Part shown: piece by piece, positions 174 through 60,692 of the stretch | Layout of the letters: each line of letters begins with the position of its first letter | Numbering within the stretch: position 1 is the stretch's first letter | DNA from: an uncultured Myxococcales bacterium | GTDB taxonomy: Bacteria > Myxococcota_A > UBA9042 | Assembly: GCA_903840165.1 (NCBI GenBank) | Contig: CAIMEY010000017.1 | Coordinates: 1 to 64,000, forward strand | Reading direction: 5' to 3' | Length of the DNA stretch: 64,000 bases | The notes under the pieces: generated by a model | The model's input: the letters and a program-made list of their open reading frames with translations, nothing else | What the model was told of the DNA's origin: nothing | Databases searched by the model: none | Position numbers and translations under genes: made by a program

Positions 174-2351
174 TTACGCTGTCATACGCGCAGATGTTGC
201 CGCGTGAGGGTCGCAGTCTAACGGTTGGCGCACGACCGTGGCTCGCCCGCGCAGCGCGTTAAACTGGTCGCGCTGCGACCATGTGTGGCGCCGCGCTTGC
301 CGATCGGCGTTTGTTCGAGCTACCCAGGGTCTGTGGCGCTGCGGCGGCAGGTGCATCACCCGGACTTGGATTGCGATTCTCAGCAGGTGTAGCTGCCACA
401 GCTGCAGCAGGACCGACGGACGCAGGCTTGGCGCGGCCGGGGTCAGCGGCCCTGCGGCGTCTTGGGCAGGCCGTGACCAACGCGCCGGCATGGATGCTGA
501 TCCAGAAATCACTCTGGTGTTTAGGTGGTTGCGGCAGGTGGCCGGAGCTTGGACTATGGCGCCGGTCTGGGCATCCGTTGCGCGGACCTGCGCTAGGATC
601 TCCGCGCGGTCAGCCAGAGCGGTGACCGCCAGCGGTACAGAAAACTCCCGCCGGAATGTGGGGTTGGTGGATTGAGTACAGTCAGCGCGCTGCGGGCAGG
701 GCCAGCACAGCCCGGCAGGCACCCGGTAGATGGCGTAGCAGCCCGAGCCATTGGACTGGCGGATGTTGTGCAGTGGCGCCAAAAATCCACGCGGACACGC
801 TTTGTGCGGTGCAAGTGGTGATTCTGGTGGGGTTTGCGTCGGCTCGACCAGCGAGTCGGCCCGAAGTGGTGGGACAGGTGCGACGGGCGGTTCGCTCGCC
901 GACTCTGCTGGCGCGACTGCCAGCTCCGGGTCGCTAGGCCCGGGTCGGTACGCTTGCTCTGGCGGCCCGCCCAGTTCGCCGACGAAGGCGGCGGCACGCG
1001 TCATTCGCAAGTTACTGACCCACATCAGCAATGCCGTGGCCAGACGCTGGCCGTACAGGTCAAAGCAGAAGATCTCGCCCAGGCGCATCCGCCGGATCGC
1101 TTGACCGAACTGGTTTTCCTGGCCGCAGCGACCGTAGTACAGCGTCACCGTGTCAGGGGCAGGCCAGGCGCCCGGGTCGAGGTCGGTGGCAAAGGCCTCA
1201 TAGTGAAAGCCGCCTTGGACCATGCCGGCACCGTGCTTTTCGCCGTCCGGGCAGACAAAGCGCGACACGACCAGCCGTGATACGACAGCGGCCCCCGCGC
1301 CGTCGTGACCGACCACGAAGCGGCCCAATTCCGTGGCCTGCCGACGCGGCCCGGAGCGCGAATCGGTCACATCCTGCCAAGTTGCACTGGCCAGGTGTTC
1401 GGCCACGCCCGGCTCGGCGTACACCGAGTGGTGCTTGAGGCGTGTCAGGTAGTGCAGATTCTGGCGACCGGCCTGAGCGATGGCTGCGGCGTAACCACCA
1501 GCGCCATCGAAGCGAATCAGCGTGTGGTCACGCGGCAGTTCGCAGATGTCGACCAGCGACGCGGCGGCTTGAGCAGCGATGCCCAAGGCGTCGGCAAACG
1601 GCGTGTTGCCCGCGTGGGTCGTCGCCTGCAAGAAGAGCCCTGCCGCAGTATGGGACAAAATTGCAATGCTGACCTGGGTTTCGCCGCGATGGCGACCCGG
1701 ATAGCCCGGTGCGCACAGAGACGCTGCGCGTCGCCTGGGCTCAGGCAAGTCCTCGTGTTCGGGCAGGGCCCGCTGACGCAAGGCTGTGACACTTGGGTCG
1801 AAATCGAGAACAGTCCAGCCCAATCCGTGGGCGTCGCGGGCCTGCGCCAGCGGCGAGCGGCATAGCGCCTGCACCTGCGCCCCCGCACCCAGTAGCCACG
1901 CAACCTCCTGATCCAAATTGGCAATCCGCTCCGCGGCGCAAAGCCCACGCGACACCGACGCCGACGTCGGCAAGCAGTGCCGCCCCGCAATCGCCGCCAG
2001 CCGTACGGCACATGCCTGGATGCCAGCGCGGAATCCCCGAATGCCGCCCTTGTTGTAGCCACACGCCAGCGCCATGAAAAACACAGTCAAGTCGAGCACC
2101 CCAAAGCCGCGCTTATACGAAAACCGCAGCCGGCGAGCGACCTCCGTGAACAAGCCGCTGTCGCCGCAGTGTTGAACCAACTCAGCGAATTCCGACGCCC
2201 ATTGGGGCATCTGCGCCACCCGGCGCGAACGGGTGACGAATTGAACGGAGCCTGCCATGATTGCCTCGGTCGCCGCCTCGAAAAGCGGTCTGATTTGCCT
2301 CGGTCCCGCGCCGCTTGGTACGAACAAGCGGCGCACCGGGGCGGCGACCAT
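174..2351 (-). mobile_element. Putative IS4-superfamily (DDE_Tnp_1-like) transposase ORF. The 3' extent is uncertain and it may be over-extended or decayed.
   Basis: A 725-aa ORF carries a 'Y-x2-R-x3-E-x6-R' motif (YYGRCGQENQFGQAIR) that resembles the YREK signature of IS4-family DDE transposases. The C-terminal ~300 aa is Pro/Arg-rich and low-complexity, so it may be read-through in high-GC DNA. Confidence 0.45.
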
Positions 2352-2636: not shown

Positions 2637-3401
2637 TCAGGCAGCCTTGGGCAAGCGATTGTCGCGCGGTTGGTACCGCCATGTCCAGCGGAAAGGATTC
2701 ACGCTGAATTTGTTCCAGAAATCGACAAAGCCAAGGATGCGCTGGCTGGCGTGGGCCACGCTTTTAGAGTCGGCGTGTTGGATGACCCGGCGGTTGACGA
2801 TGGAGAAGAAGCACTCGACCAGGTTGAGCCACGACGCGTGGATGGGCGTGAACACAAAATGGAAGCGATTCCCATGATGTTGGGTGAATTTGGTCCAACG
2901 TTTGCTCGGCCCGGCTTTGTGCGTGCTGAGGTTGTCCCAGACGACCTAGACTTCGCCGACTGGATACAACGTGGCGATTTTCTCCAGGAACTCGACAGTG
3001 GCTTGGGCCGTGCGGTGCTCGACCATTGCGACGATGGCGTTGCCGGTGGCAACCTCAAATGCCGCAGGCGCGCAGCAGGTTCCGTGGCGAATATACTCGT
3101 ATTCTTCATGCACTATCGCATGGGGACCAACTTTAGACGGATGTTTGCGACCCAAGGCTTGAACCGACATTTCGTCGATGCGGTCGATGCAGAACACCTT
3201 GGCACCAGCAGGTAGATGGGTATAAATCTCGCAAATTCGTTCGGCTTTGACGCCAAAATCGGGGTCTTTGGTATTGAGCCAGTACCGCACCAGATGCGGG
3301 CGCAAGTCGTTGAAATGCAAGATACGTCCGATTTCGCTGACCGACATCAGCCCCCCCCCGTGAGCACTGCCACCGCCGCGGCTACGGACGCTTGCGTCCA
3401 A
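2637..3401 (-). pseudogene. IS630-family (Tc1/mariner-like DDE_3) transposase remnant, frameshifted and 5'-truncated
   Basis: Three consecutive minus-strand reading frames cover one transposase: 2946-3401, a short piece at 2855-2946 and 2637-2855. The C-terminal piece contains the IS630 hallmark 'HASWLNLVECFF'. The N-terminal HTH region is absent. The fragment abuts the stop of the 3457-5013 gene. Confidence 0.75.
3351..3359. repeat. C9 homopolymer tract (poly-G on the coding strand of the IS630 remnant)
   Basis: Read directly from the sequence: gacatcag-ccccccccc-gtgagc. The tract lies at the N-terminal edge of the IS630 remnant ORF (MDASVRSRGGGSAHGGG) and is slippage-prone. Confidence 0.9.
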
Positions 3402-3456: not shown

Positions 3457-5013
3457 CTATTGGCATGTGCCGCCGTGGCAGGTCTTGGCGTTGCCGCAGG
3501 GAGCGCCGTCAGCGGTCGCTTGGTGCCAACAGCCGCAATAGGGCGCGTTGCAGCCGTCATTGGTGCACGGATTGCTGTCGTCGCACAAGGAAATAGGCTG
3601 ACCAACGCAAAGGCCCGAGATGTGACAAGTCTTGTTCGCAAAATTGTCCAGTCGCCAAACCGCGAAATTCAGGTCGATCGCCCAGCCGACAACAAGCGAT
3701 CCGCCCGGCATGCCAAGAATCGTGCTGCCGGCTTCACCGTAGACGCCGAACTTGAGACGCGATTGAAACTCGCCGCCAATGCCGATTCGCATGACATTTG
3801 GGTCATCATTGTGGCCCGAGGCGCTGCCCCCAAGAACGGCGAACCCGTCATCCACGGAAGCAATGCTAGCCACGGTGCCCACCAGTTCAGTCGAATAGCG
3901 TGAGCCAGCCTGACCATATACGTGGCTCCAGAGTTTCATTCCCGACACGTCGGTGCGGAAGAGCCAGAGAGCCGTGCCGTCGATTGGAGGCGCTCCCCCA
4001 ATTATTTCCGGAGACATCGTCCATCCGAGGATTGCGAATCCGTCCGGCAAGGCGACTACAGATGTCGCTTTATCCGATTGACTTCCACCGTAATCGCGCC
4101 GCCATAGAAAATCGCCAGTGGCGTCAGAGAACAAGAGAAATGCGTCGACATCGTATCCGTTTCCGTTGAAACCATCGCCAACAATCGCGTATCCCGAACC
4201 GGCCGCGACGAGAGCAGCCGCCTCGCCCTTGCTGAGGTTGTCAGACGCGGAACTCCAAACTTGCTCGCCATCATTTCCGATCCCGAGCAAGACCACGTCG
4301 CCGCCGGCGGCGCTGTCCGCTGTGGCCTGCGAACTCGCGGCGACAACGAAACCGCTCGCGGCGGCAACTATTCCCGCTCCCGCCCTCAGAACAGCCCCCC
4401 CATACGTCTTGCTCCAGACAAGATCACCCGACCCGCCGACCTTGAACAGCCAGATTTCCGATTGAAGAAGGGACGCCGTCTCCGTTGGGGAACCCGGCGG
4501 TCCCGTCGTTCCGGCGACGACGACATCGCCGTTCAAGTCAGCGACTAGTCCGGCTACGAAGTCATTGCCACCGCCGCCAAAAGTGTGGTCCCACAGGAGC
4601 TCTCCCTTGGCATCGATTCGTACTACACGCGCGTCACTGAAGCCGTGCGCCAGCGGCATTTCTGGGAAGAACACCATTCCACCGACAATGAATCCGTTGT
4701 CCAATCGGAGTGCGTACCGTGCTGCGGATTGTGTCTTTGCCGGATATGTCGTGAAGAATGGTGCCATACTTGACTGGGTGCACGACGCCTCGCCAGGCAA
4801 CAACGCACCGTCAACGCCGTAGAGACTAGGGACGCTGCCGCAACTTGTCTGAATACCTGAATCGGCTGCATCAATTGAGACGCCACGACAAGCCGCTATG
4901 GACAAGACAAGGAACAACAGGGTGAGCAACGGCCTCAATGCGTTGTGGAACTCGGCACCTTTCGGGCCTGGCCAACCCTGCGTTCTGCAACTGAATTCAT
5001 AGTCTAAGATCAT
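3457..5013 (-). CDS. Lipoprotein with beta-propeller-like repeats and a C-terminal myxo-type cysteine-rich module
   Basis: Signal peptide with lipobox (LSIAAC). At least five repeats of roughly (L/V)W-x3-(Y/F)GG...G(F/Y)(A/V)(V/I)(A/L)G. The C-terminus reads 'CDDSNPCTNDGCNAPYCGC...CGNAKTCHGGTCQ'. Its start overlaps the upstream gene's stop by 4 nt. Confidence 0.7.
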   Translation of the reverse strand: MILDYEFSCRTQGWPGPKGAEFHNALRPLLTLLFLVLSIAACRGVSIDAADSGIQTSCGSVPSLYGVDGALLPGEASCTQSSMAPFFTTYPAKTQSAARYALRLDNGFIVGGMVFFPEMPLAHGFSDARVVRIDAKGELLWDHTFGGGGNDFVAGLVADLNGDVVVAGTTGPPGSPTETASLLQSEIWLFKVGGSGDLVWSKTYGGAVLRAGAGIVAAASGFVVAASSQATADSAAGGDVVLLGIGNDGEQVWSSASDNLSKGEAAALVAAGSGYAIVGDGFNGNGYDVDAFLLFSDATGDFLWRRDYGGSQSDKATSVVALPDGFAILGWTMSPEIIGGAPPIDGTALWLFRTDVSGMKLWSHVYGQAGSRYSTELVGTVASIASVDDGFAVLGGSASGHNDDPNVMRIGIGGEFQSRLKFGVYGEAGSTILGMPGGSLVVGWAIDLNFAVWRLDNFANKTCHISGLCVGQPISLCDDSNPCTNDGCNAPYCGCWHQATADGAPCGNAKTCHGGTCQ

Positions 5014-5918
5014 TCAGGAACCTCCCAGAGCCACGGCTTTCCAGTAAAGTAATCCTTCACGGCGGTGTAGGTCAGAAACGTCGACGACTGAAACACGCCA
5101 GCCGACGCCGCAAGTCCGAGTACTACCACAGGTAATTTGGGGAAATTCGCTTCCAGAAACTGAGCGACCTGAATGGCAGACTGGTGTTGAGTCCAAATCA
5201 AGGCTGCGTTGGGTCCTACGTCCATATAGCCTGGATGAGTCAGAAAATCCTGGGCCATCTTGTTGAAATCGACGGCGGCTGCGGATCCTGGAACAACTGC
5301 CGCTGGAAGGATTGGTGGCTGAATGTAATCGTCCTGAGGAATGTAGTCACACGAGACCGACAGGAGTGCCGCCTCTCGCTCCGAGTAGTTTGCGTCCAAT
5401 AGCACGACCATCGGCTTGAGCAACGAGCGGAGCGCACCGCAGCCGACCCACGCACCTACGCTCACTAGGAACGACTTCGTCAAACTGCCAACCTTGGCCG
5501 GAGCCTCGAAGGATATTGAAGGTCCCCCTACCGCATTCCCGACGAACGGCCCGTTCGGAGCCTTGTGGGGACCGTCGAACGGCAGATCGGCCAGAAGAAT
5601 CGGAATTATTTTAGTTATTCCACCTATCGTCACAATCAACGTGTAGCCGCCCAACGGCGGCCAGCACCTTGGCCAAGGAACATTGGGAATGGGGCAAAAA
5701 ATATCCCCAGGTCCGTTTATGGAAACCTGGCCCGAATACAGTTTCTTGGCGGGAAAGTGTGAAAATTCCGGGCCTTCACATTGAATTGACCATTCTATCT
5801 CAAATTTCATCTCGTATTGTTCGGCATAATATTCGTCAAACCAATGGATGTTGGCGCTGAAACCACACAAATACATTGTCTTCGCCATGACGACCCTCAC
5901 GATTTGCGTTGCGATCAA
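5010..5918 (-). CDS. Hypothetical protein (302 aa), no recognisable domain. GC3 is atypically low, especially in the 5' half.
   Basis: Clean ORF. 4-nt overlaps with both neighbours (5915-5918 and 5010-5013) suggest translational coupling. Codon usage is rich in A/T-ending codons compared with leuS/thrS in the same window. Confidence 0.6.
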   Translation of the reverse strand: MIATQIVRVVMAKTMYLCGFSANIHWFDEYYAEQYEMKFEIEWSIQCEGPEFSHFPAKKLYSGQVSINGPGDIFCPIPNVPWPRCWPPLGGYTLIVTIGGITKIIPILLADLPFDGPHKAPNGPFVGNAVGGPSISFEAPAKVGSLTKSFLVSVGAWVGCGALRSLLKPMVVLLDANYSEREAALLSVSCDYIPQDDYIQPPILPAAVVPGSAAAVDFNKMAQDFLTHPGYMDVGPNAALIWTQHQSAIQVAQFLEANFPKLPVVVLGLAASAGVFQSSTFLTYTAVKDYFTGKPWLWEVPE

Positions 5919-6739
5919 CTCTTGAGCCCCATCTTTGCTTTTGCCAGGATTGACTTCGTTGTCTCGGGCACGGAACTGCTCCAGGCAAGATCCCCAGATA
6001 GTTCAAGCACTGCGACCGGGGTTGAGGTGGCAAGCCCAGCCGATGAGACCGGACTGGTAGTCTGGACTACGAGCGCAACGGTGGCTGCCTTATCCAGGAC
6101 ATAGGTTCCCTGCATGCCAAGCTGGGCTGCGGTCGCCTGCACCGCGCCCTGGGGCGCCAAAAGGAGCCTGGGCTTTGACATGACGAACCCTGGCGCTGCT
6201 CCACCACTGCCGAGTGACGTCGAAATGACGAGATACATAGCCCATTTGGGATTCTTCTCTCTGTCAAAGAAATGCAGCACTTGTGTGGCATCAGCGTTCC
6301 ATTCAAGAATACCATCGGTCTGAGCCGCGCCAGCGGCTCCCGCATATTTGAATGTCACCAACGGGATTGTAATCCACTGTTTTTGCGCGGTCTGTTCTTT
6401 GCCATCGACGACAACGGTCATTGAAATCTGCTTGGGACCTGGATACGGGACCGGTTGCGTGATTATCGGCGGCTTGCCGACAGCCGAGAGAAACGCCACC
6501 ATCGCCGCCGGTAGGTCCACCGGCAGCGTATTGCCAAAGACTCGAACGGAAAACCCGGGCATCGCATCCCATGACGGGTCGCCCGTGCCTAGCTTGATTG
6601 GGCCAATATCTACCGACTGTCCTGGATTGGAGCCCTCGACGCGGATGCGAATCGCGTAGTTTGAGGACCCTTTGTAATCCGTCCAGGCAAGTGATATTGC
6701 AAGGCCGCCTTCCAACGGTTTCGAAGCCTTGAGCCCCAC
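5915..6739 (-). CDS. Hypothetical protein (274 aa)
   Basis: Clean ORF in the same operon, with a 4-nt overlap with the downstream gene. No signal peptide and no recognisable motif. Confidence 0.6.
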   Translation of the reverse strand: MGLKASKPLEGGLAISLAWTDYKGSSNYAIRIRVEGSNPGQSVDIGPIKLGTGDPSWDAMPGFSVRVFGNTLPVDLPAAMVAFLSAVGKPPIITQPVPYPGPKQISMTVVVDGKEQTAQKQWITIPLVTFKYAGAAGAAQTDGILEWNADATQVLHFFDREKNPKWAMYLVISTSLGSGGAAPGFVMSKPRLLLAPQGAVQATAAQLGMQGTYVLDKAATVALVVQTTSPVSSAGLATSTPVAVLELSGDLAWSSSVPETTKSILAKAKMGLKS

Positions 6740-6757
6740 GCGTCCCTCCCCTTGTTC

Positions 6758-6995
6758 TCAGCCGGCCATACCTGCCGCCTGGGCTATCAAAGCGACCTGA
6801 ATATCCGCAGGCGCGGTCGTAGGAAATATCCAACCGCCGGCAGCGAACGACTTCCCAAGTTGCGCAACCCTGCTGATCAAAGCAGGTGGATCCAGGTCGA
6901 CCAACAAGGCCCGATCGTCGCCGAAACTTGCCGGGGCACTGGCAATTCGCCCGCGCAAGGGCGTCCTCGTATCCTTTCCATATCTCGACATCATC
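6758..6995 (-). CDS. Small hypothetical protein (~78 aa from MMSRYGK...)
   Basis: The ORF track gives 6758-7078, but the longer version overlaps the upstream gene in another frame. An ATGATG start at 6995/6992 lies 7 nt after the stop of the 7002-7748 gene. Confidence 0.4.
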
Positions 6996-7001
6996 GCCCC
7001 C

Positions 7002-7748
7002 TTACCACTGCTTGAGTTCGATGGTCGCGCTTTCCAAGGTCGCGCTCGCGCCACCAGCGGTGTAGTAGCCAACGCCAACGTACTTCGCCAATGAATCTAC
7101 AGGGATTGCATACAAACCGTTCGCAGGCACAGTGACAAAGCCCCCTAGCGCTGCGAAATCGGTCCCATTTTCGCTGCCGGTGGCGGTGACGTAGGCATTG
7201 CCGCCCGCCAATCCATTGACTTTGCACAATATTACGCCGCGTTTGAACGCCGACACCACGTGCGACGAATCGGCGATAAAGACCGGTGTCGTGGAAGTGC
7301 GCATTGTGTAACCAGATTTGAGGATTGGGTTGCAGAAGATCGCGTCACTGAACAGCGGCGATACGGTTGCAGTCAAGCGCGCGTCGCCTTGAAGAGCCCC
7401 GCCGACATCGCCGATTACTTGGATGCCAAATCGCACCCACGGGGCAAATTCCGCAAACATTGCAGCGTAGTCGATGCTAAGTTGCTGCCCTGAGCCGACG
7501 CCAGTCGCTATCCCGTCGATGCTATACAGGAAATCGACCCAGGTGCGCTTGTCGGTACTCCACTGCGCGAATACCCTGACCGCAGCGCTGCGAGTGACCG
7601 AAAGTACGTTGATAAAGAGCCGAATTCCAGTCGAGGCCGCAAAATCCCCAAAAGCGTCCGTCCAAACAATGTTGGGCTTGCCGTCGGCGTTGGAAACACG
7701 CGTCTCATCCGCAACTAAAACAATAGGTTGGTACCCCGACATGGTCAT
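7002..7748 (-). CDS. Hypothetical protein (248 aa), first gene of the five-gene operon
   Basis: Clean ORF with no signal peptide and no recognisable catalytic motif. A ~290-bp upstream non-coding region follows, then a structured repeat. Confidence 0.6.
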   Translation of the reverse strand: MTMSGYQPIVLVADETRVSNADGKPNIVWTDAFGDFAASTGIRLFINVLSVTRSAAVRVFAQWSTDKRTWVDFLYSIDGIATGVGSGQQLSIDYAAMFAEFAPWVRFGIQVIGDVGGALQGDARLTATVSPLFSDAIFCNPILKSGYTMRTSTTPVFIADSSHVVSAFKRGVILCKVNGLAGGNAYVTATGSENGTDFAALGGFVTVPANGLYAIPVDSLAKYVGVGYYTAGGASATLESATIELKQW

Positions 7749-8037
7749 TTTCCCAGATATGCCAGCGGATTGCGCCAGCGGGTTATCAACGATATTCTAC
7801 TGTTTGCGCGCCGCTGAGGCTACGGTGGCAGTAACCCTACTACCGAGCGCGACGTGTCGCAAGCGATTTCTTGGCGAAGATGTGAAGATTTGTAAGGGGC
7901 GGGCGATTCTTGCGCTGCAGAGCCGCGTAACCGCTCGGTGATCCACGCCTTCCCGCCGCGCCCGACCTCACCCAAGCTGGCGCCGAACACCTTCCCGCGC
8001 GCAGGAGCCCACCTACGCCGCACCGTCACCCGCGCGC

Positions 8038-8290
8038 CTAGTACCTCAAACCCGGAGTTCCTTCCGGGTTCGACGTACAGTGTTTGCTTCTAGTTTCAAG
8101 GGGGCGCGCCATCTCCACTTTCGCCGTGCCAGACTTGGCGCGGCTCATGCGCTGCGCCCGCCGTGGAGTCCTCTCCTCGCCCGCGGGCGGGCTCACCCCG
8201 GCGTTCGGCCGGGTCCCCGGCCGAACGTCCACAACGCCGCGAGCTTTCCGGTAACCGGGAAAGCACTTAGGGTTACGTGTACTAGAGCCA
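8038..8290 (+). repeat. Structured intergenic repeat (family 2), copy 1, carrying a ~130-nt GC-rich internal insertion
   Basis: Shares 5' 'cctagtacctcaaacc...tgtttgcttctagtttcaagggg' and 3' 'ccggtaaccgggaaagcacttagggttacgtgtactag' with the copy at 10433-10551. Terminal ctagtac/gtactag are inverted. Contains a conserved GTAACC(C/G)-12nt-GGGTTAC hairpin. Confidence 0.6.
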
Positions 8291-9336: not shown

Positions 9337-9427
9337 AGTAAGGCCCCAAGCGTACGCCTAACCAAGCGCTTTGACCAGCCTGCCATGAGACTGGTCGCCC
9401 TTGGATTTAGCCCGCCCTGCGCTGCGC

Positions 9428-9530
9428 GAGGGATGTGGACCGCGGGGCGGCGGCGTCCGACGCCGTTTTCCGCCGCTTAGGCGGAAAATCCCAGCCCGGT
9501 CGCCGCTTCGGCGACGCGCCAATACCCACG
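9428..9530 (+). repeat. REP-like triple-hairpin intergenic element (family 1), copy A
   Basis: Three adjacent palindromes: ggcgtccgacgcc, ttttccgccgcttaggcggaaaa and gtcgccgcttcggcgac. A near-identical inverted copy lies at 16653-16755 and a variant at 25374-25475. Confidence 0.7.
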
Positions 9531-9650: not shown

Positions 9651-10426
9651 TGACCATCGACCGCCCGCCGCCACCGCCACCGCCACCGCCGCCCGCCTGG
9701 GTGGTCGTGCCCTGCTACAACGAGGCCAAGCGTCTACAACCATCTGCATTTCTTGAGTTCCTTTGCACCCCGGTCCACGTCCATTTCGTCAATGACGGCT
9801 CAAGCGACGCCACGGCCGCGGTCCTAGCCACCCTGTGCGAGGGCAGCCAAGGCCAATTTTCCTTTGAGAATCTGGAGCATAACCTCGGCAAGGCAGAAGC
9901 CGTCCGCCACGGGCTGCTGCACGCGCTCAACCAAGGGGCGGTCAGCGTCGGCTTCTTGGACGCCGACCTGTCGACGCCACCAAGCGAAATGCTGCGTCTT
10001 TTAGCGCATTTACAAGCCAACCCGCAGTTACAGGTGCTGCTGGGCGCGCGGATTCGCTTGCTCGGCCATCAGGTGCAACGCTCACCGCTGCGGCACTACT
10101 TGGGCCGCGTATTCGCCACAGCCGCGTCGCTGACCCTGGCCAAACCGATTTACGACACGCAGTGCGGCGCCAAGTGGTTTGCCGCCGGTCCGGGGCTGAG
10201 GGCGGCGCTGAGCGAGCCGTTTGAATCTCGTTGGATTTTTGACGTGGAACTGCTGGCTCGGCTCTTGCACGGCTGGCAAGGACAAGACGCCTTAGCGGGC
10301 GATGCCATTGCGGAATTGCCGCTTCAGCAGTGGCGCGACGTGGCCGGCTCCAAGCTCAGCGCCGCAGCGATGGCCAGAGCGGCTCTAGATTTGGCGAGAA
10401 TTGCCCAACGATTACGGCGTTCTTAA
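9651..10426 (+). CDS. Family 2 glycosyltransferase (dolichyl-phosphate mannose synthase-like)
   Basis: 'VVVPCYNEAKRL...VNDGSSDAT...GFLDADLSTPP' is a GT2 N-terminal DxD-type fold. The start is taken at MTIDR, because the upstream part of the long ORF is a repeat element. Begins with a P10 run encoded by a (ccgcca)n microsatellite. Confidence 0.8.
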
Positions 10427-10432
10427 GGCCTA

Positions 10433-10551
10433 GTACCTCAAACCTAACGTTCCTTGTTGGTTCGAGATGCTGTGTTTGCTTCTAGTTTCAAGGGGAAGTG
10501 CTGCCCTGTGCGTTCCGGTAACCCGGAAAAGACTTAGGGTTACGCGGACTA
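10433..10551 (+). repeat. Structured intergenic repeat (family 2), copy 2 (compact form)
   Basis: See copy 1. Bounded by ctagtac...ggactag. Contains 'tgtttgcttctagtttcaagggg' and the GTAACCC-loop-GGGTTAC hairpin. Confidence 0.6.
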
Positions 10552-10595
10552 GCCAAGCGCCCGCAGCCCGTCCGGCCCGGCCCGGCCCAGCCATC

Positions 10596-16652: not shown

Positions 16653-16755
16653 GGGGCGTCGCCGAAGCGGCGACCGGGCTGGGATTTTCCGCCTCAGCGG
16701 CGGAAAACGGCGTCGGACGCCGCTGCTCCGCAGTCCACATCCCTCGCCCACCCGC
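16653..16755 (-). repeat. REP-like triple-hairpin element (family 1), copy B, inverted orientation
   Basis: Its reverse complement matches copy A almost base-for-base, including cgagggatgtggac...ggcgtccgacgccgttttccgccgc. Confidence 0.7.
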
Positions 16756-19707: not shown

Positions 19708-21996
19708 TCAGAGCGAAACCTGCCCCGCCGCCGGCATCCGCGCGGTATTGTAGCCACCAGACTGCCCGAAATCATTGGCTCCCCAGCACCAAACGCGGCT
19801 GTCTTTGTCAAGCGCACAACTATGAGCGATGCCGGCCGCCACGCTCTTGGCGCCGAAGACTTGCTTGTTGGCAAAGCCGGTCGCACTGCCCGTCGGCCCA
19901 CTCCCATCTAACTGCCCTAAATCATTATTTCCCCAACAAATGACCGTGCCCGAATCCTGCACGCCACAGGCATGGTTCCTGCCGATGGCCATCGTCTTGA
20001 ACTGCAAGGCCGGGAGTTCAACGGCGTGACCATCGTCGGGCACAGTGGCACCGCCCCACATCAAGGGCGAATCCGGCATTCCCCAACACCACGGTTCGCC
20101 GGTATCCGTCAGGGCGCAGAAGACGTCATTGCCGGCATAAACGTGCGCAAACTTCGGGGCGCCGGGAGGTAGAAACACCGATATTGGTTGTGAATTGGTG
20201 TCCGCTGCCCCTGGCGTGCCTATCCGATTGGAATACGTATTGCCGCCCCAACATGCCAGGGCTCCATCGTCATGTACGCCGCACGTCGTGTCGGCTAAGG
20301 TAGCGATTTCCTTCCATTGGTAGCCTCCCTGCACGGTGACAAGAGTGCTGGAGTCCAGGGTCGAGCCATTACCTAACTGCCCGTAATTATTTCGACCGAT
20401 GCAACGGACACTACCGTCATTGACCAGGACGCAGGCGTTGTTGCTGCCGACGGTGATTTGACCAATCCCGTCGATCTTTCCTCCCGCGGTGGGCATGCAA
20501 GGGCCGCCAAAGCAGAACTGTTGATTGCCCCAACACCGTAATTGGCCTGAGGACTCGGCAATGCAGCCACCACCCCAGGCTAGGCCCAAGTCGGCGCCAT
20601 CCGGCAAAGGCACCAGCGTTGGGCTGCTGTAGGTGGGCACACCCGTGGCCAAGCCGAGGGCGCCCGCGCCATTATCGCCCCAACACCATGTTTTTCCAGT
20701 TAAATCTTGAGCACACGTGCGCCCATCGCGCGCGCGCAGTCGGGCAAAAGTCAGGGTCTCTGAGAGGCGCTGCACATAGGAGGTCGCGAGTCTGCCATAG
20801 ACTTGACCATAGTCGTTGCTACCCCAGCAAAACACCTGGTCGTCTTTTCGCAGAGCGCAAGCGTGCTGCTCGCCGACGCTAAGTCCAACGAGATCGCTCA
20901 ACACCGCGTATGAGTCGGCCTCAACAACAGGTGCCGGCACGGGACGGTTGAGGTCTCGACCGTCGCCAAGCTGGCCCAAGTCATTGCGTCCCCAGCAGAG
21001 GACTTGCCGCGAAGTAGTTAGCATACAAGCGAAATCCGAGCCGACACCGACCTGAACTGCGGCTGCTTGGGCAAGGACGCGCGTCGGGCCGCTCTGCTGA
21101 CAACTGGCGTCGGAGCAACTAGGCAAGGTGCCCCAACAATACACTTCTCCGCCCCGGTTGACGGCACAAACAGTCAAAGAACTAGCTGAAATATCAACGA
21201 TATTATCGATTCCAGGTACCTGCACGGGCGCATGGCTGCCCCCGCCTGCACCAACGCCGAGCTGCCCACTATCGTTGATGCCCCAGCACCAAGGCTTGCC
21301 TTGAGCGACGGCGCAGACGAAGTAATAGGCCGTCGCCGCAGCAGTAACACCTTTAATTCCAGACACATTGACGGCTCCTGCATGGTCTGCAGTGTCACCG
21401 ACGCCCAACTGCCCGTAGTCGTTGGCTCCCCAACAAGCCAACTGGCCGTCGACTTGGATTGCGCAAGTAACCGAAGATCCGACAACGACGCGTGTTGCCT
21501 TGCCAATTCCGCTCACTGCACCCGGAGCGCCGCCATCGCCGGCGGTCCAGGCGCTGCTGGACGAGTCCCCCCAACAGTAGACGGCACCGCCCTTGTCGAC
21601 ATAGCACGCGTGATTGGACCCCGTCGCAACGGAAACCGCGCCAGATACTGGGGAACCGTCCGCCGCTTGAACGGTGGCGATGGAGACAAGCTTGGTCTGC
21701 GTGTCGGTGCCCCAGCAGCGCAAATGTTGGCTACCGTCGACCACACAACTGCGCATGTCTGCAGCAGACAGCCGCGTAGGCTGCAGCCAAGCCGGGGGCC
21801 AGTTGAGCGGCGTTGCCTCGGCGGTGGCAGGCGGAAACGCTGTTGGTCCAGGGATATGCTCAGCGCAGCCCGTCATCAGGGCCATGAGGGCAAGCGCCCA
21901 CAGGCCTGCCACTCGCCGGAAAAGGTCCGCACGCGCAGGCGCGCAGAGGCCGGCCAGGTTGGCGCGCCCCCTTAAAACCACAAGCAATTGAAGCAT
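19708..21996 (-). CDS. RCC1-repeat (regulator of chromosome condensation-like) beta-propeller protein, secreted
   Basis: At least seven repeats of 'CWG.ND.GQLG.G'. N-terminal signal at MLQLLVVL...LMTGC. Confidence 0.8.
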   Translation of the reverse strand: MLQLLVVLRGRANLAGLCAPARADLFRRVAGLWALALMALMTGCAEHIPGPTAFPPATAEATPLNWPPAWLQPTRLSAADMRSCVVDGSQHLRCWGTDTQTKLVSIATVQAADGSPVSGAVSVATGSNHACYVDKGGAVYCWGDSSSSAWTAGDGGAPGAVSGIGKATRVVVGSSVTCAIQVDGQLACWGANDYGQLGVGDTADHAGAVNVSGIKGVTAAATAYYFVCAVAQGKPWCWGINDSGQLGVGAGGGSHAPVQVPGIDNIVDISASSLTVCAVNRGGEVYCWGTLPSCSDASCQQSGPTRVLAQAAAVQVGVGSDFACMLTTSRQVLCWGRNDLGQLGDGRDLNRPVPAPVVEADSYAVLSDLVGLSVGEQHACALRKDDQVFCWGSNDYGQVYGRLATSYVQRLSETLTFARLRARDGRTCAQDLTGKTWCWGDNGAGALGLATGVPTYSSPTLVPLPDGADLGLAWGGGCIAESSGQLRCWGNQQFCFGGPCMPTAGGKIDGIGQITVGSNNACVLVNDGSVRCIGRNNYGQLGNGSTLDSSTLVTVQGGYQWKEIATLADTTCGVHDDGALACWGGNTYSNRIGTPGAADTNSQPISVFLPPGAPKFAHVYAGNDVFCALTDTGEPWCWGMPDSPLMWGGATVPDDGHAVELPALQFKTMAIGRNHACGVQDSGTVICWGNNDLGQLDGSGPTGSATGFANKQVFGAKSVAAGIAHSCALDKDSRVWCWGANDFGQSGGYNTARMPAAGQVSL

Positions 21997-22064
21997 ATCC
22001 GAACCCGCAAGGGAACTCTGGGTCGGATGGCTGCTTGGCATTGGGCACATCACCGACTCCCCCG

Positions 22065-23099
22065 TTAGAACCGCCAGGCGACGCCCATGCCCGCGGGCAC
22101 TGGGCCTGGGGTCACGGCAATCCGTTCGGAATGACTGATCAATCTCCATACGCCATAACCGGCTACCGCGACGCCCACGCCCAGCAAGCTGTAGCCTGTG
22201 TTGCGCCGCCCGGCGATGGATGCAGCCCGTTCATGCGCCTGATCAAAGGTGATTTTGCCTGTCACATGGCCATTGACCAGCCCAAGGTCCTTGTCCAAAG
22301 ACTGCCGGTCGACCGTGGCCCACGCATACAAACCAACACCGGCCAACGCCAGCACTGAGCCCCCGCCGGTTAGCCACCAACCTGTTGAACGGCCAAGAGA
22401 TTCGCCGGGCACCGCCTGAGGCCCGATGGCCGGTTTCTGCAGGGTTTGCTCCTTGGCCGCTAGGTCTGCCAAGTAGGCCTGAGCCTGACCGCGCTCTGGC
22501 GTCGATTCGGCACACAGCTTGACAAAGCGCGCCAGATAATCACGAGCTAACTCCTTGTCCCCTATCTGAAAATACGTGCGGCCGGCGCGGTACAGCAGAA
22601 CGGGCTCGCCGGGTCGCCGTTCGGCCGCGTCCGCGTACAGATGGGCGGCGAGGGCCAAACGATTGGCCTTGGCGTGCTCGTCGGCTTCGCGAATCATGGC
22701 GTCGATGCGTCCAGAGGCTATTTCCTCAAGGTACTTCTGCGCTTGCCCTGCACGACGCGAATCTTCAGGCGAAGGCTGATGCCCGCCAACCGCGGCTAAA
22801 AACTCACGATAATACTTTTCAGCCACATCCAAATGGCCCGCCACGTGCTGGGCTCGCGCTGCGCCATAGACATAGGCGGGCGTTGTTGGGTCTGAATGCC
22901 AAGCGTCCAAGTACAGTTGCGTGGCGCGGTCGTGGTCCCCCGCCTCATAGGCTGCTGTCGCATTCTTTGCCATGGAAAGCGCGGACTTGGCGCGATCGAC
23001 CGCGAAGACCGGCAGGGCCAGCCCAAGGCTCCAGGCGAGTACGCCCGCAACGATTCGGTGACGCCTCATGGGCACCCCAGCCATGCGGGCTGGCCGAGA
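22065..23099 (-). CDS. TPR-like repeat protein with C-terminal transmembrane anchor
   Basis: Tetratricopeptide-like helical repeats ('AEKYYREFLAA', 'AQAYLADLAAK'). C-terminal hydrophobic segment ending ...GPVPAGMGVAWRF. A paralogue lies at 46337-47236. Confidence 0.55.
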   Translation of the reverse strand, partial: SRPARMAGVPMRRHRIVAGVLAWSLGLALPVFAVDRAKSALSMAKNATAAYEAGDHDRATQLYLDAWHSDPTTPAYVYGAARAQHVAGHLDVAEKYYREFLAAVGGHQPSPEDSRRAGQAQKYLEEIASGRIDAMIREADEHAKANRLALAAHLYADAAERRPGEPVLLYRAGRTYFQIGDKELARDYLARFVKLCAESTPERGQAQAYLADLAAKEQTLQKPAIGPQAVPGESLGRSTGWWLTGGGSVLALAGVGLYAWATVDRQSLDKDLGLVNGHVTGKITFDQAHERAASIAGRRNTGYSLLGVGVAVAGYGVWRLISHSERIAVTPGPVPAGMGVAWRF

Positions 23100-25496: not shown

Positions 25497-27582
25497 TTAC
25501 TGTTCACGCACGAAGAGTTCTTGGGCGACGCCGCTGCAGGCCCAGGTACCGGTGTAACTCGTGTACATACAGCCACATTGCGCGTGCAACGAGCCGTCAT
25601 ACAGGCAAGCTTGGTGGTTGGGCGAGGTGCCGATGCAGTAGTTGGCCTTGTTGCCGACGCCGACGCCCCAGTTCCACCAGATGCCGTTGCCGTACTGTAA
25701 GCCGCTGATATTGGTCAGGGTAAAGTCTGGAGCACCCTCGTAGGTCCAGGCCTGATTGGTTTGGTCGGGGAAGGCAAACATCTTGAAAATGCTGCCATAA
25801 GGCCCGGGCTGGAACTTGACGACCGACACCGGTTGCGCGCCATCAGAGGACGTGGCGCCGCTGCCAAACACCTTGGACAAGACATAGCCGCCGTTGGCCC
25901 AGTTTTTCGTAATTGTTTCAAGAGTTACCCAGCGGCCTGAGGTATCGCAGGTGGTCTTGTCGCCCGCAACAAAGCGCATGCCGCGGGTCCAACCGCCGCC
26001 GTCCGTGGACATGTCGCACCAGACCTGAAAGGAATTGGCACCGCCGGGGCCGTCCGGATCAATCCAATAATACCCGTCCTTAGACATCGGCGCCTTGATG
26101 ATGATGTCGCGGCAGGAAGCACCCGGGGTTGCCTGCGAGCCAATGACGCCGAGGTTGAGCGGGAAAAAGTCTTTGCCATTGCAGATGTACAGTGCTTGGT
26201 CGACGGTGTTGACATAGGCATAGCCCGTCTGCGTGGCGTCACAGGTCACAGGATGTTGAATCGCCAGTTGGAATTTCAGGCCGCCCTGGGCGATTAGTAC
26301 GCCGCTGCTCAGGACTTTTTTGCTCGATAGGGTCTGAACGCCCAAGGACCAGCTGTTGATGGCACCGTCGTTGGCAATGTTGTTAAAGCCACTGTCCACC
26401 ACCGTCAGCAGCCATTTGCCGGCCGGATTCTTGCCCACCCAGGCGCCGAGATCCCCGCTGACTAGCTTGGATTTGCTGGGGAAAACGGTCTTAAGGCTGA
26501 CTCCGTCGGCCGCGCCATCCCACAGCACGTATTGGGCATTGTTCGGGTCGGTCAGCGTCACTTTGAGTTTGAGCAAGCTCGAGGTGCTGATATCGACAGA
26601 CACGGTGACGGCCTGCGCGGTGCCCAAGTCGGGGACGGTCAATGCGTCGGTAACCCCCGGTGGGAAATAGTCTTTGATAGGGACGACGCCCGTTCCGGCA
26701 AAGGAGTCGATAAAGACGTCGCTAAGCAACCCATTGGAAACTTGGGACAAGCCGTCTGCAGGCAAGGCCGGCGTCGCCGGGACACACTGGAGCGAGCCGT
26801 CATTGGCTAGGCCCTGGACGACAAGGCCCGAGCCGCACGCCGTCCCCACCTTGGCTAGGGCAGGAATGCCCTGCAGGTCTGCGAACTTCCCTGTCGTCGC
26901 CACATTGGCCAAACCACCCTTTTGGGCAAAGACGCTGAGGTCCGGCTGAGCCAGTAGATCGTTGTAATTTCCGGTTGTTGCCACCGTCGCTAGGGTGGAT
27001 GCCTTGGCAAACACCTGGAGATCCGCGGCCTTGGCATAGTCCTGCAGGTCCGCAGTCTTGGCCAGGGGCTGAAGGTCGACGGTCTTGGCATAAGGCTGTA
27101 AATCCGAGGATTTGGCGTAATCCTTGAGGACGCCGGCATCGAGTTGTCCGGCGGTCACACAGCCAGAACAGCCAATCGAATTAGCCACTTGTGCAACGAC
27201 GGCAAAGGCCACGGCGCGCAACGGCACAGGAGCCAACGCCGGGTCGTTGCCAACCTGCACGGTCAGCCACAGATCCTGGCTTAGGCCGGCATTGCTCAAC
27301 AAATTCGAGGCAATGGCTACCTTGCTGCCCAGCGCCCAGGCAAAGCGACCACTTTGGACCGTGACGACCACCGGCCCTTCGCTCCATAGCGGCTGACCGA
27401 CCGCCTTGTCATTGGCAAACAGGCTGAAAGTCAAGGCGTAATCACCATCTGCCGCGGGCCCTCCTGCTGCCGATAGCAGCGCGCCGACGGTACCCAAGGT
27501 GCCAGCATTGACCGCTAGCGCCACGGAGGCCTGCAGGGCCAGCAGAATGCAAGCACAGAGAATAAAAATGCTTTTCCCCATC
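25497..27582 (-). CDS. Large secreted protein with phage-fibre-like 'DLQxYAK' repeats and a fibrinogen-related (FReD-like) domain
   Basis: Start at MGKSIFILCACILLALQASVALA (signal). 'TVDLQPLAKTADLQDYAKAADLQVFAK' repeats. 'CRDIIIKAPMSKDGYYWIDPDGPGGANSFQVWCDMSTDGGGWT' matches the fibrinogen C-terminal domain core (C..I.....G.Y.I.P......F.VYCDM.TDGGGWT). Confidence 0.7.
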
Positions 27583-28010
27583 CTCGCGACGCGAACTCGG
27601 GACTTGGGCGGCAGACTCGGTTGCATCGGGCTCTCCTGCAAGCAGTGGACACTTGGCACCTTAGCGCTTGCCGGCCGCGGTTGCAACGGGGGGCGCTGCG
27701 GCCTAGGTGCCCCTGCATGCACGGCAGTCAGGTGCTTGAATATGCGCGTGAATTGAGGTGTTTCGGGCGCTCGCAATGCAATCTTCGGGCAAAGTGCTCG
27801 TCGCAGCAGTCCCTTGGCCGTTTCGCGGGGATTTGCCGGAGTCGACGCCCGAGCCCGGGCAGGCGAACCGGCAGACAGGAACGCTCCACCGTGGCAAGCA
27901 CCATGCGCGGCACTAGTCAGCTGCCGAATTGCCTTTGCTAGCAAGTTCTTGGCGCAACCTGTTCAATTCGGTGAAGGCGCGCCGGGCAAATCGATGCCTC
28001 CGCGGGGTCC

Positions 28011-60600: not shown

Positions 60601-60692
60601 CAACCGAAGGCAGCGCAAACCAGCGGCGCGGGTGCCGCGATGGGTCCCTTCATGCGCGCCAACTGTGGCTGTAGGCTTGCAAAATCCAACAT
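57606..60692 (-). CDS. Large secreted lipoprotein: myxo-type Cys-rich repeats followed by RCC1-like propeller
   Basis: Signal/lipobox (FLSLLSGCG). At least six 'C(D/E)D.N.CT.D.C....C' modules. At least seven C-terminal 'CWG.N..GQLG' RCC1-like repeats. Confidence 0.75.
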   Translation of the reverse strand: MLDFASLQPQLARMKGPIAAPAPLVCAAFGCFLSLLSGCGLGDVGADLDAYWAAHADGGDVAASDGKTSEIQGIDSVDANTALDAEDSTITPEILDIMPDSVTSEGLVDAADAATEVVSPCQPADCDDGNPCTTGTCLPAGCSQTAIDGPCPDGQACTGPDVCVAGQCQTGPESWVAAAAGESSLFSQFYAVAAEADGNWLAAGVQAQDGQGVLQPRAWLQRRTAQGKLLGNWLSPDGTAASYRLAVPLAGSVLLLGTSGDKNSFLLAINLKPGQEPPPVPQATDWPDQPAAAVLHNGGAVVASTTGSAGAPSLVIERLEDKQIWRKPLALIGDAPVRATALADAGDHLIIAGETVGLAADPVQSYVVSASWEGVKAATAIGVACATGASTHIAALLPVAGGVVAVGRCEIGGISKPWLARLDLSASQVLAQHTWSDWTGQWQAGVASAGDTLILAGKSVAVDQSSQARLVRADLVGTLAWQLLPTTTGGLEAVAASPWGWVAAGSQDKSGLWLRSNPWGGIGCSSGLCAGSDSACEDNNSCTLEACDPVSGCIHVKSTAPCDDGTLCTVADLCSGGQCQGTPLACGDGNPCTLDSCDSSKGCVHLAQDATCDDQDACTVKDVCVTGLCTAGIAISCDDDNPCTLDSCDAKVGCGHQKLGDGTGCGAGLVCAAGACITPWAKTVVAGGNFSCALLTSGSVSCWGADQVKQLGTGDATEQTVPQTVPLPGKALQIAAGSDAACALLQDGTVQCWGNNSHGMLGQVGAIALLSNSTPLAVALPQPVTQIALGDNHACALLQNQTVWCWGDNLHLQAGIVPVGTKVPPTLVGLFGQAAWLAAGSNSTCVRSQSNELKCWGSVDFVANPPADTPPLTLTIKAGASDCTIGDYHLCLRYPDGPPQCWGTNDHGQLGSGVTGKQPLAIPTETVVFAQAAKAIAAGEQFNCAADALGQLACWGDNTVGQCSTTPGVSAVAKALSVPIAAVVAVAAHDNHACAVTVTGAVGCWGDSAWPGVPTKPGAVVYVAASLP

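What the first reader, a model, noticed from the sequence alone, without database searches (positions are those of the whole stretch)
3457..7748. Compositionally atypical five-gene translationally coupled operon of unknown function next to IS remnants
Five minus-strand genes (7748->3457) are packed with 4-nt ATGA overlaps at two junctions and gaps of 7 and 19 nt at the others. Four of them (248, ~78, 274 and 302 aa) have no motif I can recognise, and none has a signal peptide. The last is a lipoprotein with beta-propeller-like repeats plus a myxo-type Cys-rich C-terminal module. Third-codon-position composition is visibly AT-shifted in this operon, most clearly in the 5010-5918 gene (for example atg att gca acg caa ... 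tat tat gcc gaa caa tac gag atg aaa ttt gag ata gaa), whereas the rest of the window (leuS, thrS) is GC3-rich. On the left the block is bordered by an IS630 remnant cut off exactly at the operon's last stop codon and by an IS4-like ORF. On the right it is bordered by a structured repeat. Taken together, the four unannotatable cytoplasmic proteins, the surface-exposed lipoprotein and the horizontal-transfer signature look like an acquired multi-component system, for example a novel surface, defence or toxin-delivery module.
Basis: partly seen in the sequence, partly recalled or inferred. Interest (0 to 1): 0.8.

Follow-up and report, generated by a model that had tools for sequence, protein, structure and literature searches.

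The report
Rare jelly-roll-led mobile gene cassette
This is a real five-gene operon, probably acquired from elsewhere, that is led by a very rare protein made of two phage-cement-like jelly-roll domains and ends in a cysteine-rich surface lipoprotein; related cassettes exist in a few other lake bacteria, none matches a known system, and its function is still unknown.

Summary
The operon is real. Five co-directional minus-strand genes (3457-7748) form the lowest-GC 4.3-kb stretch of the window, next to an IS630 remnant and an IS4-like ORF.

Some details of the finding need correcting:
- Only one junction has an ATGA overlap.
- g4 probably starts at ATG 5888.
- The GC3 shift is modest (0.59-0.65 against 0.70).

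g1 is not featureless. With a 42-sequence alignment AlphaFold gives pLDDT 94, showing two tandem jelly rolls. A family profile matches the Bordetella phage BPP-1 cement protein Bbp16 (E 2e-6).

The g1 family is very rare: 89 representatives among 1.84 billion. In nine further loci, g1 relatives sit first in tight co-directional cassettes in eight. The downstream genes are unrelated between loci and lack signal peptides. Five sequenced cassettes, this one included, carry a lipobox lipoprotein rich in cysteine, and a sixth has a non-canonical candidate. Cassettes in two other genomes are also AT-shifted, and four loci sit by IS or toxin-antitoxin genes.

g4 has no homologue among 5.8 billion proteins. 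Nothing matches phage, plasmid, IMG/VR, PADLOC or NCBIfam resources.

Function is not established. My best guess (about 0.3) is a mobile, envelope-directed cassette of payload plus lipoprotein, built around an abundant jelly-roll subunit.

The parts
7002..7748 (-). g1: 248 aa (246 aa if started at ATG 7742). Two tandem jelly-roll domains (about residues 1-133 and 137-248). No signal peptide. Founding member of a rare family that leads each related cassette.
6758..6994 (-). g2: 78 aa, Ala/Gly/Pro-rich, no Cys, no signal peptide. A gene of 77-92 aa holds the same position in the two closest cassettes, without detectable sequence similarity where the sequence was available.
   Evidence: SD-like AAGGGGG just before the ATG.
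5915..6739 (-). g3: 274 aa, GTG start after an AAGGGGAGGG Shine-Dalgarno. Its sequence pattern suggests a beta-rich protein (by eye, not predicted). No family or PDB match.
5010..5918 (-). g4: 302 aa from TTG 5918, or more likely 292 aa from ATG 5888. An orphan: the only hit among 5.8 billion proteins is itself. It has the lowest GC3 of the operon (0.594).
3457..5013 (-). g5: 518-aa lipoprotein. Lipobox LSIAAC with Cys42 at about nt 4888-4890. SBBP-type beta-propeller at about aa 120-450 (nt about 3664-4656). Cys-rich Dicty_CTDC-like module at aa 456-518 (nt 3460-3648). ATGA overlap with g4.
7749..8035 (-). Upstream non-coding region. It is the presumed promoter region and the right edge of the low-GC island.
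   Evidence: GC rises from 0.58 to 0.65 across about 7750-8250. No consensus sigma-70 site was found. The promoter is inferred, not shown.
2637..3401 (-). IS630-family transposase remnant. It is frameshifted (151-aa and 72-aa pieces), lacks the N-terminal HTH part, and shares the low GC of the operon.
   Evidence: Weak DDE_3 hits. Short blastn matches to annotated IS630 transposases. Upstream frame. GC.
174..2351 (-). 725-aa DDE-transposase-like ORF (IS4/IS1380-like, weak support) with host-like GC. A public contig with this locus ends here.
8036..8285 (.). Structured repeat element to the right of the operon. Its second copy lies at 10428-10552. It is probably not part of the cassette.
   Evidence: (D8, D10); no Rfam family.

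Best explanation
The region is a horizontally acquired, lineage-restricted cassette of a type not described before, anchored by its first gene g1.

Shown:
- The five genes form one tight co-directional unit.
- g1 is a covalent tandem (pseudo-dimer) of two jelly-roll domains of the Bbp16 / discoidin (galactose-binding-like) type.
- g1 relatives occupy the first position of tight co-directional cassettes in other lake-metagenome bacteria.
- In every cassette examined, g1 has the highest GC3.
- The genes after g1 differ between loci and have no signal peptides. In related loci they include a cutinase-like alpha/beta hydrolase (sub-threshold in Pfam, E 3e-5 against PDB) and a weak, sub-threshold right-handed beta-helix match.
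- Five sequenced cassettes, this one included, contain a lipobox lipoprotein with many cysteines, and a sixth has a non-canonical candidate. Here it is g5, with an SBBP propeller and a CTDC module.

Inferred:
- g1 is the abundant, oligomerising binding or scaffold subunit.
- g2-g4 are a lineage-specific payload that leaves the cytoplasm by a non-Sec route or acts together with g1.
- g5 sits in the envelope as the docking partner or as protection (immunity-like) against the payload.

In short, I propose a mobile, polymorphic, envelope-directed cassette of effector plus lipoprotein. The descriptive part (real, acquired, g1-anchored variable cassette) I hold at about 0.85. The mechanism I hold at about 0.3, and that is the confidence given here.
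For: - Operon anatomy and coupling.
- Identical locus in several metagenome assemblies at 99.95% identity or more.
- g1 fold and homology.
- g1 family size and uniform length of about 250 aa.
- Cassette contexts, with g1 first and short gaps or overlaps.
- Downstream proteins unrelated between loci.
- Enzyme-like payloads in relatives. PETase/cutinase-like: Pfam E 6e-5 (23.1 bits, below the 28-bit cut-off) and PDB LCC E 3e-5. Beta_helix: Pfam E 0.004 (17.2 bits, below the 25.9-bit cut-off)..
- Lipobox in a Cys-rich gene of five sequenced cassettes, and no signal peptide elsewhere.
- g5 C-terminus is 45% identical over 62 aa to the lipoprotein of the L003 cassette.
- AT shift in the window, and in L003 and L017, with g1 always the most GC3-rich gene.
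- IS or toxin-antitoxin neighbours.
Against: - No step of the proposed mechanism is demonstrated.
- No secretion-system genes lie within 10 kb in any locus.
- There are no toxin or immunity domains in g2-g4.
- g5 (518 aa) is large for an immunity protein. Cys-rich propeller proteins are common in this genome anyway, so some of the association could be background.
- One relative (L012) stands alone without a downstream cassette.
- The enzyme-like domains are in related cassettes, not in this one, and both Pfam hits are below the curated cut-offs.
Confidence: 0.3

Rival explanations
1. Domesticated or decayed phage structural module. g1 descends from a capsid cement or decoration protein. The variable large proteins (beta-helix, esterase, Ig-like repeats in relatives) would be tail-spike or receptor-binding-type proteins, kept as a particle-like or adhesin-like device.
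For: - Profile hit to the BPP-1 cement protein Bbp16.
- BFVD hits to phage minor tail and receptor-binding proteins at the domain level.
- Weak PHROG hits for some relatives.
- Beta-helix and esterase domains without signal peptides in related cassettes.
Against: - No portal, terminase, major capsid, tail or integrase gene lies in any of the loci. The flanks are housekeeping genes.
- tblastn of g1-g4 finds nothing in 50,697 phage records.
- Nothing was found in IMG/VR.
- BFVD TM-scores are only 0.2-0.47, which is single-domain similarity.
- The fold is shared with many cellular carbohydrate-binding modules.
Confidence: 0.15
2. There is no joint system. g1 is a stand-alone jelly-roll (lectin-like) protein. 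The downstream ORFs are fast-evolving lineage-specific genes that happen to share its transcript, and the lipoprotein linkage reflects the abundance of Cys-rich lipoproteins in these genomes.
For: - Downstream genes share no similarity between loci.
- g4 is an orphan.
- L012 has g1 alone.
- This 64-kb window alone holds several RCC1, CTDC or Somatomedin-type Cys-rich secreted proteins.
Against: - g1 is first in a tight co-directional cassette in 8 of 9 further loci, with gaps that are mostly under 30 nt or overlaps.
- A lipobox gene lies inside five sequenced cassettes.
- The whole cassette, not g1 alone, is AT-shifted in three genomes.
- g5 and the L003 lipoprotein share 45% identity in the C-terminal module.
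Confidence: 0.2
3. A structural surface or extracellular assembly (fibre, coat or lattice) built from g1, by analogy with the jelly-roll Ena spore appendages, BclA/C1q/TNF-like trimers or capsid cement. The other genes would be minor or assembly components and g5 the envelope anchor.
For: - g1 is first and has the highest GC3 in each cassette, as expected for a major subunit.
- 32 of 54 full-length relatives carry Cys in residues 2-6, which recalls the Cys-bearing N-terminal connector of Ena subunits (my own knowledge of Pradhan et al. 2021; PDB entry 7a02 appears).
Against: - The window's g1 and its closest relatives lack the N-terminal Cys.
- Many relatives have only that one Cys, so no conserved partner Cys exists for an Ena-type cross-link.
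- There is no signal peptide or known export route for g1.
- The supposed minor components are not conserved.
Confidence: 0.15
4. A new anti-phage defence system sitting in a variable island.
For: It lies in a variable, IS-flanked island. One relative sits next to a PIN/PhdYeFM toxin-antitoxin pair. It is rare and patchily distributed.
Against: - No PADLOC hit for any of the five proteins or for 42 g1 relatives.
- No nuclease, ATPase, helicase, TIR, SIR2 or other typical defence domain.
- An envelope lipoprotein plus beta-sandwich proteins is not a usual defence architecture.
Confidence: 0.07

Closest known systems
Bbp16, the cement (decoration) protein of Bordetella phage BPP-1 (Pfam PF21190; PDB 3j4u chain H)
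   Different: g1 has two domains in one chain and an N-terminal domain specific to its family. It is not next to an HK97-type capsid gene or any other phage gene. Single g1-family members hit PF21190 only below its cut-off.
XepA / YomS, prophage lytic-cassette proteins of Bacillus subtilis (PDB 6i56, 6i5o; PMC6834076)
   Different: Only one domain aligns (about 100-119 residues, 8-11% identity). There is no sequence similarity and no holin, endolysin or prophage context here.
Cellular tandem or double jelly-roll proteins (DUF2961, PNGase F) discussed as relatives of viral capsid proteins (PMC8812541)
SBBP beta-propeller lipoproteins (NCBIfam NF047494, LipL53 family), the CylK propeller, and Dicty_CTDC (PF00526) Cys-rich repeats
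   Same: g5 has a lipobox, SBBP-like repeats (CylK E 1e-5) and a C-terminal module homologous to proteins that carry Dicty_CTDC.
   Different: All family scores are far below the cut-offs (15.6 bits against 400; 15.6 against 27). No function is transferable.
Effector-immunity cassettes with periplasmic or lipoprotein immunity (for example T6SS Tle lipase with Tli); an analogy of logic only, from my own knowledge
   Same: A variable enzyme-like protein without a signal peptide is followed by a small or large lipoprotein in an AT-shifted, IS-associated island.
   Different: No T6SS or other secretion genes are nearby. There are no known effector, adaptor or immunity families. g1 resembles neither Hcp, VgrG or PAAR nor any known adaptor.

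Membership tests
Bbp16 phage cement protein family (PF21190) | Sequence match to the family model at or above the curated cut-off (27.1 bits) | tested here: not met
   g1 alone gives no Pfam hit. Distant single-domain relatives reach 19.5-22.6 bits. Only the 42-sequence profile reaches the PDB chain, at 30.9 bits, E 2e-6. This is superfamily-level homology, not membership.
Bbp16 phage cement protein family (PF21190) | Eight-stranded jelly-roll fold | tested here: met
Bbp16 phage cement protein family (PF21190) | Encoded next to an HK97-fold major capsid gene inside a phage or prophage | tested here: not met
   No phage genes in any locus. No tblastn hit in phage records. None in IMG/VR.
Double jelly-roll major capsid proteins and their cellular DJR homologues (DUF2961) | Two jelly rolls packed as in viral capsomers, giving whole-chain structural matches | tested here: not met
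Bacterial lipoproteins (Lgt/LspA substrates), for g5 | N-terminal hydrophobic segment followed by a lipobox [LVI][ASTVI][GAS]C | tested here: met
   RPLLTLLFLVLSIAAC with Cys42. This is a regex and hydropathy test only; no dedicated predictor was available.
SBBP beta-propeller lipoprotein, LipL53 family (NF047494) | Score at or above 400 bits to the equivalog model | tested here: not met
   15.6 bits. Only repeat-level similarity is present; see also CylK, E 1e-5.
Dicty_CTDC repeat (PF00526), for the g5 C-terminus | Score at or above 27 bits | tested here: inconclusive
   g5 itself scores 15.6 bits. Its C-terminus aligns at 30-45% identity with proteins that do pass the cut-off: L017 599 aa at 40.2 bits and window 57606-61181 at 75.1 bits.
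Known anti-phage defence systems (PADLOC-DB v2) | Any component matching a defence-system model | tested here: not met
   No hits for g1-g5 or for 42 g1 relatives.
Polymorphic effector-immunity cassettes (T6SS-type or similar) | Linkage to secretion-apparatus or adaptor genes, and a recognisable toxin domain with cognate immunity | tested here: not met
   No such genes or domains in the window or in related loci. Toxicity and immunity themselves cannot be tested with these tools.
Ena-type disulfide-linked jelly-roll fibres (DUF3992) | N-terminal connector cysteines with conserved partner cysteines in the jelly-roll body | tested here: not met
   The window's g1 has no N-terminal Cys. Many relatives have only the N-terminal Cys and no partner.

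The most novel reading that the evidence does not exclude
The g1 family may define a previously unrecognised class of mobile bacterial cassettes. In this reading an abundant tandem jelly-roll protein is a cellular relative of phage capsid cement proteins. In most members it carries a conserved N-terminal cysteine that could be a lipidation, metal-binding or cross-linking site. This protein would carry or organise interchangeable non-Sec payload proteins, paired with a Cys-rich envelope lipoprotein. That would amount to a new delivery or surface-assembly principle in Myxococcota-like freshwater bacteria. It would also be a new cellular lineage bearing on how viral jelly-roll capsid accessories arose from, or were captured by, cells.
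Probability: 0.15. Interest if true: 0.8.

Novelty: categorically new. Interest (0 to 1): 0.55.

Why it matters
If the cassette is a coherent system, it adds a new kind of mobile module with swappable parts to bacterial cell-envelope biology. It is defined by a conserved jelly-roll 'anchor' protein, a hypervariable middle and a Cys-rich lipoprotein, in poorly studied freshwater bacteria.

The anchor protein is a non-viral, tandem relative of a phage capsid cement protein. That bears on the open question of how viral jelly-roll proteins and cellular carbohydrate-binding jelly rolls are related (PMC8812541).

The strongly enriched N-terminal cysteine in a signal-peptide-less bacterial protein family is unexplained and can be tested.

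Practically, g1 now has a high-confidence structure model and a profile that others can use to find the cassettes. If the cassette turns out to have no joint function, the finding is still a clean example of an AT-shifted, IS-associated island of orphan genes.

Tried and rejected
- Single-sequence family scans (Pfam, PHROGs, NCBIfam, PADLOC) of all five proteins gave nothing significant.
- The first AF2 model of g1, from a 3-sequence alignment, was poor (pLDDT 64.7). I replaced it with the 42-sequence model.
- I rejected a hidden upstream signal peptide or lipobox that would make the N-terminal Cys of g1 relatives a lipoprotein Cys. The upstream frames are non-hydrophobic or contain stops.
- I looked for Bbp16-like domains in g2-g5 or in neighbouring proteins and found none.
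- The search for related loci with the broader alignments failed because they are not conserved enough. With the narrow alignment it returned only the already known MAG and one fragment.
- The third large-database search, with the family alignment, returned only 4 proteins because of the candidate cap. As a result g2, g3 and g5 were never searched there.
- The afdb50 fold library was unavailable.
- Rfam and tRNA scans of the whole window were empty.
- No consensus promoter or terminator bounds the operon.
- The host organism could not be named.

Full report
**1. The observation**

The minus strand between 3457 and 7748 carries five consecutive ORFs:
- g1, 7002-7748, 248 aa
- g2, 6758-6994, 78 aa
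- g3, 5915-6739, 274 aa
- g4, 5010-5918, 302 aa
- g5, 3457-5013, 518 aa

Independent gene calls on public contigs that are 99.95-99.99% identical to the window give the same five genes, except that g1 is called 2 codons shorter and g4 10 codons shorter.

I read the junctions directly:
- g1/g2: TAA, 7 nt, then ATG, with an AAGGGGG Shine-Dalgarno-like run.
- g2/g3: TGA, 18 nt containing AAGGGGAGGG, then GTG.
- g3/g4: the overlap is TTGA (TTG ATC GCA ...), not ATGA. A better start is ATG 5888, six bases after GAGGG.
- g4/g5: a true ATGA overlap.

So the packing is real, but only one ATGA overlap exists.

On composition, the operon has 57.0% GC, against 60.8 +/- 1.5% for windows of the same size. 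No non-overlapping window is as low. GC3 is 0.59-0.65, against 0.70 +/- 0.03 for 29 other genes. The shift is consistent but modest. An RCC1/Dicty_CTDC gene and PhoD in the same window have GC3 of 0.61-0.65.

The low-GC tract runs from about 2400 to about 8000. It includes an IS630-family remnant (2637-3401). That remnant has weak DDE_3 hits and short DNA matches to annotated IS630 transposases, is frameshifted, and lacks its N-terminal part. To the left lies a DDE-transposase-like ORF with host-like GC (174-2351), at which a public contig ends.

To the right lies a structured repeat (8036-8285) with a second copy at 10428-10552. The two copies flank the OmpA and glycosyltransferase genes rather than the operon.

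**2. What the proteins are**

As single sequences, g1-g4 match nothing in Pfam, NCBIfam, PADLOC or PHROGs. g3 and g4 match nothing in the PDB.

*g1.* In 5.8 billion proteins g1 has only three relatives: itself, one at 55% identity and one at 30%. A profile of these three, run with HMMER against 1.84 billion cluster representatives, finds 89 proteins at E below 1e-3 and 32 below 1e-10. Most are about 250 aa.

With a 42-sequence alignment AlphaFold2 gives a confident model (pLDDT 94.3, pTM 0.83) of two all-beta domains. The 3-sequence model had been poor.

- Ena spore-appendage subunits and several phage decoration proteins

There are no double jelly-roll capsid proteins among them.

At the sequence level, the family profile hits the BPP-1 cement protein Bbp16 (3j4u_H) at E 2e-6 over the C-terminal domain. 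Distant single-domain relatives give sub-threshold hits to Bbp16, DUF6385 and F5/8 type C. The N- and C-terminal domains align weakly with each other (hhalign E 5e-4).

I conclude that g1 is a tandem duplication of a Bbp16/discoidin-type jelly roll. Bbp16 works as a dimer (PMC3863775), so g1 resembles a single-chain dimer.

*g4.* g4 has no homologue other than itself in 5.8 billion proteins.

*g5.* g5 has a lipobox (Cys42) and SBBP-type propeller repeats (CylK E 1e-5; NF047494 far below its cut-off). Its Cys-rich C-terminus is 45% identical over 62 residues to the lipoprotein of a related cassette, and is homologous to proteins that pass the Dicty_CTDC threshold. The same architecture (propeller plus CTDC) occurs elsewhere in the window (57606-61181; also 19708-22149).

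**3. Related loci**

I looked at the contexts of nine further g1 relatives. Gene sizes in aa, in order from g1:
- P0002 contigs: 248-77-745-516, then an IS21 IstB fragment
- L008: 248-92-857-434 (the last an RCC1 propeller lipoprotein)
- L010: 253-479-518, next to a PIN/PhdYeFM pair
- L013: 252-445-136, between IS66-like fragments (my reading of the translated fragments)
- L016: 256-173-1034-169
- L017: 256-1198-165-458-599
- L003: 247-443-446-572-714-261-414
- P0012 contig: 270-511
- L012: g1 relative alone

In eight of the nine, the g1 relative is the first gene of a co-directional run with mostly short gaps or overlaps.

All-against-all BLAST and profile searches show that the downstream proteins are unrelated between loci. 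The exceptions are the Cys-rich C-terminal modules and one shared N-terminal Cys motif (L013 and L017).

None of the downstream proteins has a signal peptide, with one recurring exception. Counting the window, five sequenced cassettes contain a lipobox protein with many cysteines: the window's g5 and the L008, L010, L003 and L016 lipoproteins. L017 has a non-canonical candidate.

Two of the large middle proteins in relatives look enzymatic, on weak evidence:
- a cutinase/PETase-like alpha/beta hydrolase in L016 (Pfam 23.1 bits, below its 28-bit cut-off; PDB E 3e-5)
- a right-handed beta-helix in L017 (Pfam 17.2 bits, below its 25.9-bit cut-off, E 0.004)

The cassettes in L003 and L017 are AT-shifted relative to their flanks, as in the window: GC3 0.68-0.74 against 0.81-0.86, and 0.70-0.82 against 0.86-0.90. 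In all six cassettes measured, g1 has the highest GC3.

No phage genes occur in any locus. tblastn of g1-g4 finds nothing in phage or plasmid collections, and an IMG/VR scan finds nothing. PADLOC and NCBIfam find nothing for 42 family members.

**4. Interpretation**

Shown:
- a real, tightly packed operon
- a compositional island next to IS remnants
- a rare but genuine protein family (g1) with a known fold and phage-cement-type homology
- a recurrent cassette architecture (g1 first, variable proteins without signal peptides, a Cys-rich lipoprotein)
- a recurrent AT shift

Inferred:
- g1 is the abundant oligomerising subunit, from its first position, highest GC3 and dimer-like tandem of a domain that builds assemblies elsewhere.
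- The middle genes are an exchangeable payload.
- The lipoprotein is the envelope partner, either a dock or protection.

I put about 0.85 on the descriptive statement and about 0.3 on this mechanism. The rivals are:
- a domesticated phage structural module (0.15)
- no joint function (0.2)
- a g1-based surface structure (0.15)
- a defence system (0.07)

**5. Comparison with known systems**

The closest known proteins are Bbp16 (superfamily-level homology, not membership), XepA/YomS (fold only), cellular tandem jelly-roll proteins (PMC8812541; a capsomer-like arrangement is not supported), and SBBP/CTDC lipoproteins for g5.

No known multi-gene system shares the architecture. I therefore rate the cassette as lying outside every known kind of system. 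That rating rests on the absence of matches, not on a demonstrated new function.

**6. Limits**

One related MAG is labelled 'Proteobacteria bacterium'. That the sources are freshwater-lake metagenomes is my own reading of the sample identifiers; no tool output states it.
- No expression or interaction data exist.

Noticed in passing
g1 family (P0003, P0011, P0016, P0027, P0032, P0035, P0052, P0068, P0082 and others); not the window's g1: 32 of 54 full-length family representatives have a cysteine within residues 2-6 (MCxxP, MGCxC, MACxx, MSCxC), against 3% expected (binomial P about 6e-35). Upstream frames show these are genuine N-termini, not hidden lipoboxes. Many members have no other cysteine. 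The role of this cysteine (lipidation, metal binding or cross-link) is unexplained.
   Followed up: partly
window 8036-8285 and 10428-10552: A two-module repeat (82-84% identity). One copy is split by a 132-nt GC-rich insert. A hairpin is kept by compensatory changes (ACCCGGA/TCCGGGT against ACCTAAC/GTTGGT). The ends are inverted (CTAGTAC/GTACTAG). The RNA fold z-score is -3.9 and there is no Rfam family. The copies flank the OmpA and GT2 genes. It could be a MITE-like element or a small RNA.
   Followed up: partly
window 9423-9520 and 16653-16750: A 98-nt inverted repeat, 94% complementary, 7.1 kb apart. It brackets the region from the GT2 gene to the gene after leuS. The same 95-nt sequence appears twice in L001.
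   Followed up: no
window 19708-22149, 25497-27944, 30043-31878, 57606-61181: The host encodes many eukaryote-like, Cys-rich secreted proteins: RCC1 propellers (one also with Dicty_CTDC repeats), Somatomedin_B, and a fibrillar-collagen C-terminal/fibrinogen-like domain with a proprotein-convertase P domain. This suggests a Myxococcota-like lifestyle. It also means the architecture of g5 is native to the genome.
   Followed up: partly
L003 10866-19521 (MAG 'Proteobacteria bacterium F1-140-MAGs058'): The related cassette holds four paralogous proteins of about 414-572 aa with no match in Pfam or the PDB. This is a second uncharacterised family, expanded inside one cassette.
   Followed up: partly
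L013 1880-3217 and L017 10794-14390 (N-terminal regions): The proteins that follow g1 in these two loci share a disordered N-terminal region ending in the motif HPCxxGxxCxCGGxCxxAA (30% identity over 129 aa). L016's 173-aa protein has a GGCGCTHG motif. This may be a common Cys-based docking or metal-binding site.
   Followed up: no
window 61691-61963 (inside ORF 61158-62501): A 24-nt tandem repeat encodes PEPK-like repeats, a proline/glutamate/lysine-rich low-complexity segment.
   Followed up: no
L008 about 435-474 and L017 about 9961-10000 (just upstream of the g1 relatives): Short direct sequence repeats (cgacagccggcg... and cacacctgctggca...) lie immediately upstream of the start codons of two g1 relatives. 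They might be regulatory or slippage-prone tracts.
   Followed up: no
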